Shown here piece after piece: positions 5,133 to 6,415 of a DNA stretch of 64,000 bases. The stretch covers positions 337,900,001 through 337,964,000 of the forward strand of contig OZ024743.1 in assembly GCA_964016885.1 (NCBI GenBank), read 5' to 3'. The notes beneath the pieces are model-generated. The model made no database searches. It was not told the DNA's origin and was given only the letters and a program-made list of their open reading frames with translations. Position 1 is the first letter of the stretch. Each line of letters starts with the position of its first letter. Source of the DNA: Eledone cirrhosa (Eukaryota). Both the position numbers and the translations under genes were made by a program.

Positions 5133-6415
5133 TAAGTATGTACACGTACATACATATATGTATACAGACGTACAGTAGTATGTATATATATATACATACA
5201 CACATATATATATGTACGTATGGATTCACCGAACATTTATTATAATGCTCGGTGTGTTTGTAAACAAACATCCCGTATTAAGCCGTAGTGTCCAGCAACC
5301 ATTGTCGCTCGTTTGTTCAACACTGAGAAAGGAACGCTGTACTAGTTTCAAACTTATTAGCTATCGACAGCAACGTATACGTTCCTACCAGATTGTTGAA
5401 CGTATATACTTACCTTATGCATATTAACGGCTGAGTAGCCCAATTTGCATATCGAGTGGGTTAATCGGCCGGGTGCACCGAAAACGATAAACGGAAAAAA
5501 TGAAACGAAATTTTTTTTCCCACTCTTAGTACGGCTGTTACTTAAATATAAGTATGTACACGTACATACATATATGTATACAGACGTACAGTAGTATGTA
5601 TATATATACATACATGCACACATATATATATGCACGTATGGATTCACCGAACATTTATTATAATGCTCGGTGTATTTGTAAACAAACATCCCGTATTAAG
5701 CCGTAGTGTCCAGCAACCATCGTTGCTCGTTTGTTCAACACTGACAAAGGAACGCTGTACTAGTTTCAAGCTTATTAGCTATCGTCAGCAACGTATACGT
5801 TCCTGCCAGATTGTTGAACGTATATACTTACCTTATGCATATTAATGGCTGAGTAGCCCAATTTGCATATCGAGTGGGTTAATCGGCCGGGTGCGTGTAT
5901 GTACGTAAATATATGTATGTACGTGTACATACTTATATTTAAGTAACAGCCGTACTAAGAGTGGGAAATGAAATTTCGTTTCATTTTTACCGTTTATCAT
6001 TTTCGGTGCACCCGGCCGATTAACCCACTCGATATGCAAATTGGGCTACTCAGCCGTTAATATGCATAAGGTAAGTATATACGTTCAACAATCTGGCAGG
6101 AACGTATACGTTGCTGACGATAGCTAATAAGCTTGAAACTAGTACAGCGTTCCTTTGTCAGTGTTGAACAAACGAGCAACGATGGTTGCTGGACACTACG
6201 GCTTAATACGGGATGTTTGTTTACAAACACACCGAGCATTATAATAAATGTTCGGTGAATCCATACGTACATATATATATGTGTGCATGTATGTATATAT
6301 ATATACATACTACTGTACGTCTGTATACATATATGTATGTACGTATACATACTTATATTTAAGTAACAGCCGTACTAAGAGTGGGAAATGAAATTTCGTT
6401 TCATTTTTTCCGTTT
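5133..6415. mobile_element. Retrozyme-like non-autonomous element: ~418-nt unit in tandem and inverted arrangement
   Basis: ~1.8 units in one orientation (5133-5893) then ~1.2 units inverted (~5895-6415); one HHR per unit; (TA)n flanks. Other copies at 20047-20377 and 47121-47778. Confidence 0.8.
6108..6150 (+). ncRNA. Minimal type I hammerhead ribozyme
   Basis: acguug-CUGACGA-uagcuaauaagcuu-GAAA-cuag-UA-cagcgu. Copies at 5752-5794 (-), 5334-5376 (-, core mutated to CUGUCGA), 20308-20350 (-), 47526-47568 (+). Confidence 0.85.

What the first reader, a model, noticed from the sequence alone, without database searches (positions are those of the whole stretch)
5133..6415. ~418-nt hammerhead unit inserted three times with different circular permutations
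The copies at 5133-6415, 20047-20377 and 47121-47778 start and end at different points of the same unit, and tandem arrays run beyond one unit length in both orientations. That pattern is expected from reverse transcription of a circular or concatemeric RNA (inference). The unit also contains its own TA/CA-rich segment, which could anneal to (TA)n targets.
Basis: partly seen in the sequence, partly recalled or inferred. Interest (0 to 1): 0.76.

Follow-up and report, generated by a model that had tools for sequence, protein, structure and literature searches.

The report
Hammerhead retrozyme with Penelope-type insertion marks
A 420-base non-coding repeat with a predicted self-cutting RNA motif occurs over 11,000 times in this animal genome, and its copies end at two fixed points beside TA repeats just as neighbouring Penelope-like retrotransposons do, so it likely borrows their enzyme to spread.

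Summary
The repeat is real. The unit is 420 nt, carries a type I hammerhead (predicted cut after 6144) and has 11,269 exact core matches genome-wide. It is a non-LTR retrozyme.

"Different circular permutations" is only half right. In 116 insertions, 149 of 173 hammerhead-sense 3' ends fall at two sites 56 nt apart, mostly beside (TA)n. The 5' ends are scattered, often joined to an inverted second arm, and 36 of 39 fully scorable two-armed inserts use one site per arm. The Hydra-clade Penelope-like element (PLE) in this window and two sister retrozyme families show the same pattern. It matches the published two-site internal initiation ("tail") of PLE reverse transcriptase.

Copies run through the ribozyme cut site with no pile-up of ends there, so the template was likely a circle or an uncut multimer. 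These could not be separated: no RNA run was listed, and two long arrays show later local duplication. Priming by the unit's TA-rich segment is not supported. The partner PLE family was not identified (one suggestive chimera).

The scan noted similar PLE-type units in other genomes, but not this sequence.

The parts
5127..5894 (-). Locus 1 left arm, 1.83 units; hammerhead-sense 3' end at start site B (unit position 2) against (TA)n; 5' end at unit position 69
5895..5905 (.). 11-nt filler at the head-to-head joint of the two arms
5906..6417 (+). Locus 1 right arm, 1.22 units; 5' end at unit position 387, 3' end at start site A (unit position 58) against (TA)n
5940..6359 (+). One full 420-nt unit used as reference; strongly self-paired (z -7.9); longest ATG-started frame on the hammerhead strand 49 aa
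6102..6154 (+). Type I hammerhead: helix I with internal loop, core 6114-6120 and 6135-6138, U.U at the base of helix II, one-pair helix III with palindromic tetraloop, predicted cut after 6144
5748..5800 (-). Second hammerhead copy, intact core
5330..5382 (-). Third hammerhead copy with core A6 changed; likely dead
6260..6355 (+). TA-rich segment, predicted long hairpin; has a homologue in the 468-nt sister family
6362..6417 (+). 56-nt 'tail' between start sites B and A, with a short conserved hairpin just before site A
5038..5133 (.). (TA)n tract at the left end, shared with the 312-nt retrozyme
6417..6456 (.). (TA)n tract at the right end
20042..20377 (-). Locus 2, one arm, 0.8 unit, 3' end at site A, intact hammerhead core
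47121..47396 (-). Locus 3 left arm, 0.66 unit; non-canonical 3' end (unit position 32); 5' end inside the hammerhead
47393..47778 (+). Locus 3 right arm, 0.92 unit, 3' end at site B against (TA)n; helix II mutated
4195..5039 (.). Neighbouring 312-nt retrozyme family: inverted arm 4195-4431 plus about 2 units 4428-5039, three hammerheads of the same geometry
12396..16249 (-). Hydra-type Penelope-like element (family H1) with the same two-end, two-arm, (TA)n architecture; candidate class of helper
21021..22910 (+). 5'-truncated Hydra-type PLE (family H2); a copy of this family is joined to the retrozyme at locus L007/L181

Best explanation
This is a non-coding, hammerhead-bearing tandem repeat (non-LTR retrozyme) whose copies end at two fixed sites beside TA repeats, and it is likely inserted by the reverse transcriptase-endonuclease of a Penelope-like element, probably of the Hydra clade. 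Shown: unit, copy number, fixed 3' ends, scattered 5' ends, head-to-head arms with one site each, shared alleles between arms, and the same pattern in a coding PLE nearby. Inferred steps: (1) arrays are transcribed; (2) the weak hammerhead cuts as a dimer and monomers are ligated into circles, or the RNA stays an uncut multimer; (3) a PLE protein, probably a dimer, binds the RNA and nicks both strands of AT-rich DNA; (4) each nicked strand primes cDNA internally, one at site A and one at site B of the same RNA, and synthesis runs back through the ribozyme junction and past one unit; (5) the two cDNAs are joined at their ends by short homology or filler, giving the inverted structure, or one arm is joined to host DNA; (6) some arrays later grow by local DNA duplication. 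Odds for the template within this model: circle 55, uncut multimer 40, end-to-end jumping on cut monomers 5.
For: 3' ends: 149 of 173 lie in two windows covering 38 of 420 nt; 103 of 121 in the set taken in order along contig C1; 5' ends 9 of 168 in those windows. Two-armed inserts: 36 of 39 with both ends canonical use one site each, p about 1e-8. (TA)3 or more lies within 25 nt of 133 of 148 canonical 3' ends, against 663 of 3873 background positions. The PLE family H1 shows two 3' ends 88 nt apart; 13 of 13 two-armed copies with both ends canonical use one each (counted by eye). The 468-nt sister family ends at homologous sites, 8 of 8 such inserts (by eye). Frangieh et al. (PMC11167929, abstract and main text read) show in vitro that PLE RT starts internally at two sites that define the tail and extends both nicked strands. 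Craig et al. (PMC8557442, sections 6 and 11 read) report (TA)n insertion for almost all Hydra families and a tail at one end. Arms of one insertion agree at 388 of 438 polymorphic sites against 21568 of 41887 between insertions. No pile-up of 5' ends at the cut site: 5 of 168 at positions 200-210; 32 genome-wide junction matches there against 33 at a control site. Hammerhead helices covary across three families: 92% of cells paired, 10 of 14 pairs changed on both sides. Target duplications are visible in about 5 of 11 candidates (best L121, L021, L131).
Against: No sequence kinship between the unit and either Hydra family tested, so the helper family is not identified. Only one retrozyme-PLE chimera looks age-matched (L007/L181), and a deletion at insertion explains it too; the others were a decayed PLE (L015) or an insertion into a PLE (L121). 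The catalytic fold is not the lowest-energy fold of the isolated ribozyme (-6.3 against -14.9 kcal/mol; z -1.6) and Rfam does not hit it. L123 (ABAB pattern) and one arm of L178 (period 3) show local duplication or assembly error, so array length alone does not prove rolling-circle synthesis. Two of 30 two-armed inserts have discordant arms (L175 1 of 20, L034 6 of 13). Frangieh et al. found hammerhead cleavage unnecessary, uncut RNA the main substrate, and no strand difference in start site. The two end windows were drawn after seeing the data.
Confidence: 0.85

Rival explanations
1. One reading: a circular RNA is opened at random points, and its TA-rich segment anneals to (TA)n to prime, giving free circular permutations.
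For: Arms exceed one unit and cross the cut site. 5' ends are scattered. Site B is at the 3' edge of the TA-rich segment.
Against: 149 of 173 3' ends at two sites. The TA-rich segment is predicted to be paired. Site A is 56 nt away from it. L121 inserted in an AT-rich coding stretch with no (TA)n and a 9-nt duplication.
Confidence: 0.04
2. The unit is the terminal repeat of an undetected coding PLE; the copies are 5'-truncated stumps, and tandems come from local satellite-like expansion (the model discussed by Li et al. 2026).
For: The architecture is the same as PLE stumps. L123 and L178 show local duplication. Li et al. found homology of 24 of 57 Xenopus retrozyme families to known elements, nearly all PLEs.
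Against: Upstream of the unit lies another unit, not an ORF: 71 free 5' flanks share no common upstream sequence (part of the all-against-all output was cut). Most multi-unit arms of this family have private, star-like differences (L019 25 single and 0 shared, L021 15 and 0), as expected if the units arose together at insertion.
Confidence: 0.06
3. A SINE-like element moved by a LINE or RTE enzyme, with inversions made by L1-type twin priming.
For: 5' truncation, inversion and target duplications also occur with LINEs (recalled). LINE-like sequence flanks locus 2 (recognised by eye).
Against: L1 twin priming (recalled) inverts the 5' part without repeating the 3' end; here both arms carry the 3' end, at two offset sites. 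There is no poly(A) tail, and copies longer than one unit are the rule.
Confidence: 0.04
4. A DNA-level element (foldback, MITE or Helitron-like) in which the hammerhead look is incidental.
For: Inverted arms and TA flanks resemble foldback elements. Rfam gives no hammerhead hit.
Against: Arms differ in length and end at different sites; 59 of 116 inserts have one arm. The hammerhead core is invariant and the helices covary across three families.
Confidence: 0.01

Closest known systems
Metazoan non-LTR retrozymes (Cervera and de la Pena 2020, PMC7229834; results and discussion read; review PMC7761336, passages)
   Same: Non-coding tandem unit of a few hundred bases with one type I hammerhead per unit, low GC, strongly self-paired, thousands of copies, living beside PLEs. 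The ribozyme joins features of both axolotl types: a one-pair helix III with a palindromic tetraloop (Amex1) and a U.U mismatch at the base of helix II (Amex2).
   Different: Slightly longer than the 170-400 nt reported for invertebrates. Circular RNA and cleavage are not shown here. In the parts read, those papers give no fixed ends, inverted arms or (TA)n targeting, and the review says no motif points to the helper element; here the ends do.
Penelope-like elements, Hydra clade (Craig et al. 2021, PMC8557442) and the tail and inverted-pLTR structure (Arkhipova et al. 2013, PMC3846280, passages)
   Same: Partial tandems, 5' truncation, inverted head-to-head arm, tail on one end only, (TA)n targets, hammerhead.
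   Different: No ORF. The tail is 56 nt against 30-40 nt described (88 nt in the local Hydra family). No sequence kinship to the two local Hydra families tested. The hammerhead has full helices I and II, not the minimal PLE form.
Anolis Poseidon PLE in vitro (Frangieh et al. 2024, PMC11167929)
   Same: Two internal start sites that define the tail; both DNA strands extended; AT-rich targets.
   Different: There the start sites are in an AC-rich stem-loop with no strand preference. Here they are U-rich stretches just 3' of hairpins, and the two arms almost always use different sites.
Vertebrate retrozymes as non-autonomous PLE derivatives (Li, Clavereau, Pollet 2026, bioRxiv 10.64898/2026.07.22.740005; parts 1-3 of 5 read)
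   Same: Same class and same proposed helper.
   Different: Their evidence is co-occurrence and pLTR homology in vertebrates, with tandems ascribed partly to local amplification. Here the evidence is the insertion signature in an invertebrate-type genome.

Membership tests
non-LTR retrozyme | Type I hammerhead in each unit | tested here: met
   Core invariant and helices covary. The structure was drawn by hand on 15 picked sequences, so the controls lean in its favour. No Rfam hit.
non-LTR retrozyme | Short tandem unit (150-450 bp), non-coding, GC under 50% | tested here: met
   420 nt, arms up to 4.9 units; longest ATG-started frame 49 aa sense, 97 aa antisense through the TA repeat
non-LTR retrozyme | No LTRs, primer binding site or polypurine tract | tested here: inconclusive
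   No internal region between terminal repeats in 116 insertions; primer binding site and polypurine tract were not searched for
non-LTR retrozyme | Strongly self-paired RNA | tested here: met
   z -7.9, 0 of 100 shuffles; prediction only
non-LTR retrozyme | Self-cleavage of the transcript | not testable with these tools
   Needs a transcription assay; the weak helix III predicts dimer dependence
non-LTR retrozyme | Expressed as circular and linear RNA | not testable with these tools
   No RNA holder listed
non-autonomous Penelope-like element | Two 3' ends with the tail on one arm, inverted 5' arm, partial tandems | tested here: met
   compared with PLE family H1
non-autonomous Penelope-like element | Sequence homology to the pLTR of a coding partner | tested here: inconclusive
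   Not met for the two families tested; the genome holds many more PLE families that were not tested
Hydra-clade PLE (window 12396-16249, candidate helper class) | DKT motif, RWK-like motif, CxCX5C linker, C-terminal GIY-YIG, (TA)n targets | tested here: met
   DKT, RWR, CxCX5C and CxxC/CxH read by eye in the 709-aa ORF of L062 against Craig et al. section 11; no tree built; no Pfam hit
autonomous PLE (the unit itself) | RT and endonuclease ORF | tested here: not met

The most novel reading that the evidence does not exclude
Each insertion is made by one PLE enzyme dimer working on one circular retrozyme RNA: its two active sites start at two different fixed positions, each primed by one nicked DNA strand, and chase each other round the circle. 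That would explain in one model the PLE tail on one arm, the inverted structure and the 20-unit identical two-armed array (L176, sister family), and would be direct genomic evidence of rolling-circle, target-primed reverse transcription in an animal, with Hydra-clade PLEs as the helpers of at least three retrozyme families.
Probability: 0.35. Interest if true: 0.75.

Novelty: new member of a known kind. Interest (0 to 1): 0.5.

Why it matters
How animal retrozymes spread, and which enzyme moves them, is an open question; a 2020 review says their sequences give no clue to the helper. Here the ends of the copies carry the PLE two-site initiation signature in three retrozyme families that sit beside young Hydra-type PLEs with intact ORFs. 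That gives exact predicted start positions on a 420-nt RNA for an existing in vitro assay. The one-site-per-arm rule and the shared alleles also suggest that both arms of PLE-type inverted insertions come from one RNA, which bears on the unsolved PLE mechanism. The element class itself is known, and the circle was not shown.

Tried and rejected
Rfam: no hammerhead hit for 5900-6240; the whole-window rows shown were microsatellite and hairpin look-alikes.

RNA evidence: no RNA holder listed. Contigs of four coded runs were laid. They show presence only, and the few matches in X5 and X6 (3 and 5 records) are no evidence of host range.

Helper search by sequence: unit against family H1 gave only an 18 of 19 match at E 0.014 in AT-rich sequence and TA-rich noise; against H2 nothing real. 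A pattern meant to find related hammerheads beside ORFs returned the 468-nt sister family in all 100 listed places. Pfam found no family for the H1 protein.

Idea that the two arms come from different RNAs: rejected as a rule; 28 of 30 pairs are concordant.

Retrozyme-PLE joints as proof of partnership: five seen among 71 free 5' flanks. That is near what PLE density could give. L015 joins a decayed PLE, L121 is an insertion into a PLE, L161 is not a direct joint, L020 has a TA-rich filler and was not resolved.

Long identical arrays as proof of rolling circle: weakened by L123 and L178.

Conservation of the hammerhead core among genomic copies (12 of 726 against 418 of 18661 mismatches): uninformative.

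The control pattern wrongly allowed the consensus letter at one place, so about 10 of its 33 hits look like one-base deletions; about 8 of 32 test hits also look like small deletions. The conclusion of no pile-up stands but the ratio is rough.

The supplement of PMC7229834 could not be read; it may list this or a related family. bioRxiv supplements of Li et al. were closed.

Full report
Observation. The window is contig C4 of a 3.0-Gb genome, rich in microsatellites. A 420-nt unit (5940-6359) occurs at three places, 96-99% alike. Locus 1 has two arms joined head to head: 5127-5894 on the minus strand (1.83 units) and 5906-6417 on the plus strand (1.22 units). Locus 2 is one arm (20042-20377). 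Locus 3 has two short arms (47121-47396, 47393-47778). A 30-nt pattern for the ribozyme core has 11,269 exact matches in the genome and the reversed control none.

The ribozyme. The plus strand at 6102-6154 holds a type I hammerhead with the cut predicted after 6144. [quoted passage not shown] Cervera and de la Pena (PMC7229834, results and discussion read) describe each feature in axolotl retrozymes that cut poorly alone and well as dimers. Rfam misses the motif and its catalytic fold is not the lowest-energy one. Support comes from comparison. Two more families with the same geometry turned up: a 468-nt unit (5,463 pattern matches, control 11, all 100 listed places this family) and a 312-nt unit right beside the finding at 4195-5039. 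On 15 picked ribozymes from the three families the core is invariant, 92% of cells pair, and 10 of 14 pairs change on both sides. I drew that structure from these sequences, so the controls lean towards it. Within the family, one helix I pair is a standard pair in 140 of 147 copies across five pair types.

Where copies begin and end. I mapped 116 insertions: 33 from best-hit loci and 83 from loci taken in order along C1. Eight duplicate loci, inserts under 150 nt and inserts touching a locus edge were left out, and every locus was found through the ribozyme region, which favours long copies. In hammerhead sense, 149 of 173 outer 3' ends fall in two windows, around unit positions 2 and 58, that cover 38 of 420 nt; in the ordered set alone, 103 of 121. 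The windows were drawn after seeing the data and widened for an older subfamily. The 168 5' ends are spread out, with 9 in those windows. Of 57 two-armed inserts, 39 have both ends canonical, and 36 of these use one site per arm (p about 1e-8). (TA)3 or more lies within 25 nt of 133 of 148 canonical 3' ends, 27 of 58 free 5' ends and 17% of background positions; about 5 of 11 candidate target duplications look real. So the copies are not free circular permutations.

The same pattern in a coding element. The window holds a PLE at 12396-16249. Its family is young, with many intact ORFs at 96-99% identity, and has the Hydra marks listed by Craig et al. (PMC8557442 sections 6 and 11; motifs read by eye). 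Its 30 loci end at two sites 88 nt apart in (TA)n, with 5' truncation, inverted arms and partial tandems; 13 of 13 two-armed copies with canonical ends use one site each (by eye). A second Hydra-type family also has two ends. Arkhipova et al. (PMC3846280, passages) describe the tail on one of two inverted repeats. Frangieh et al. (PMC11167929, abstract and main text) show that PLE RT starts internally at two sites that define that tail and extends both nicked strands. The retrozyme's 56-nt stretch between its two ends is therefore best read as a PLE tail.

The template. Both start sites lie 217 and 273 nt downstream of the cut site, and most copies run back across it. A cut linear monomer would stop cDNA at position 206. 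There is no such pile-up: 5 of 168 5' ends at 200-210, and 32 genome-wide junction matches at the cut site against 33 at a control site (the control pattern was looser than meant). The template was thus joined across the cut site. Arms of one insertion agree at 388 of 438 polymorphic sites against 51% between insertions, with two exceptions in 30. In the young 468-nt family, L176 is one 9.3-kb insert of 6.85 plus 12.94 units with one single difference and three variants seen in none of 10 other loci, shared by both arms; L177 and L178 have one and two such variants. This fits rolling-circle synthesis from one circle, which PLE RT could do because it lacks RNase H (recalled). Against that: L123 alternates ABAB and one arm of L178 has period 3, which points to later duplication or assembly error; Frangieh et al. 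found uncut RNA to be the main substrate; and no RNA data were available. I put the circle at 55 and an uncut multimer at 40.

The helper. Neither Hydra family tested shares real sequence with the unit. At L007/L181 the retrozyme's 5' end joins, in the same sense and with 2 shared letters, the ORF of family H2, whose inverted 3' repeat forms the other arm. That looks like a template switch in one event, but a deletion at insertion fits too. Other joints were chance or insertion into a PLE. PLE machinery is well supported; the Hydra clade is likely from (TA)n targeting; the family is unknown.

Comparison and novelty. This is a new member of the non-LTR retrozymes. PLEs were proposed as helpers in 2020, circular templates for PLEs in 2014 (PMC4209133, part 2 of 4 read), and a 2026 preprint supports PLE origin by homology in vertebrates (parts 1-3 of 5). 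A review states that the repeats show no motif pointing to the helper (PMC7761336, passages). Six searches found no paper describing this family or the two-site signature in retrozymes; subscription papers, repeat databases and the 2020 supplement were not seen. The giant squid paper only counts hammerheads (PMC6962438, passages). The scan's notes held nothing on this genome or sequence and three related PLE-type units in other genomes, read after my reading was formed.

Verdict. A real, abundant retrozyme with clear PLE insertion marks. Interest 0.5.

Noticed in passing
window 4195-5039: A second retrozyme family (312-nt unit, hammerhead of the same geometry, two arms, two end sites) ends in the same (TA)n tract as the finding.
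   Followed up: partly
L176 (G000:C1:30831000-30840999), L177-L180, L186: A 468-nt sister retrozyme family, younger, with two-armed arrays of up to about 20 nearly identical units; predicted cut triplet GUU.
   Followed up: yes
window 12396-16249 (-): Young, high-copy Hydra-type PLE; this copy has a stop near 15399. Its repeat carries a hammerhead-like motif with an A at core position 4, about 26 nt before one 3' end; activity doubtful.
   Followed up: partly
window 21021-22910 (+), 23716-24234 (-), 43900-45381 (-): Fragments of three further Hydra-like PLE families; H2 has two 3' ends and an internal (TA)n in its 3' UTR.
   Followed up: partly
window 9920-9996 (+), 34314-34390 (-), 48741-48812 (-): Three more hammerhead-like motifs of other types; the first overlaps a long hairpin at 9823-9939.
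   Followed up: no
L182 3273-6396: A retrozyme inserted into an H2-like PLE ORF with a 9-nt duplication and no (TA)n; part of the composite recurs inverted, as if it had been moved again as a PLE.
   Followed up: partly
L175 1719-4597: Two-armed insert whose arms belong to different subfamilies (16.5% apart): two templates or two events.
   Followed up: partly
L123 1337-3273; L178 538-5806: Period-2 and period-3 variant patterns within arrays: local duplication, multimeric template or assembly error.
   Followed up: partly
window 6063-6081 and 13322-13305 (-): A splice-donor-like stretch is shared (18 of 19) by the unit and the 3' UTR of the H1 PLE; E 0.014, may be chance.
   Followed up: no
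window 6907-6990: Near-perfect palindrome, MITE-like.
   Followed up: no
window 31539-32959 (-), 49513-49938 (-): Fragments that look like other GIY-YIG PLEs (recognised by eye).
   Followed up: no
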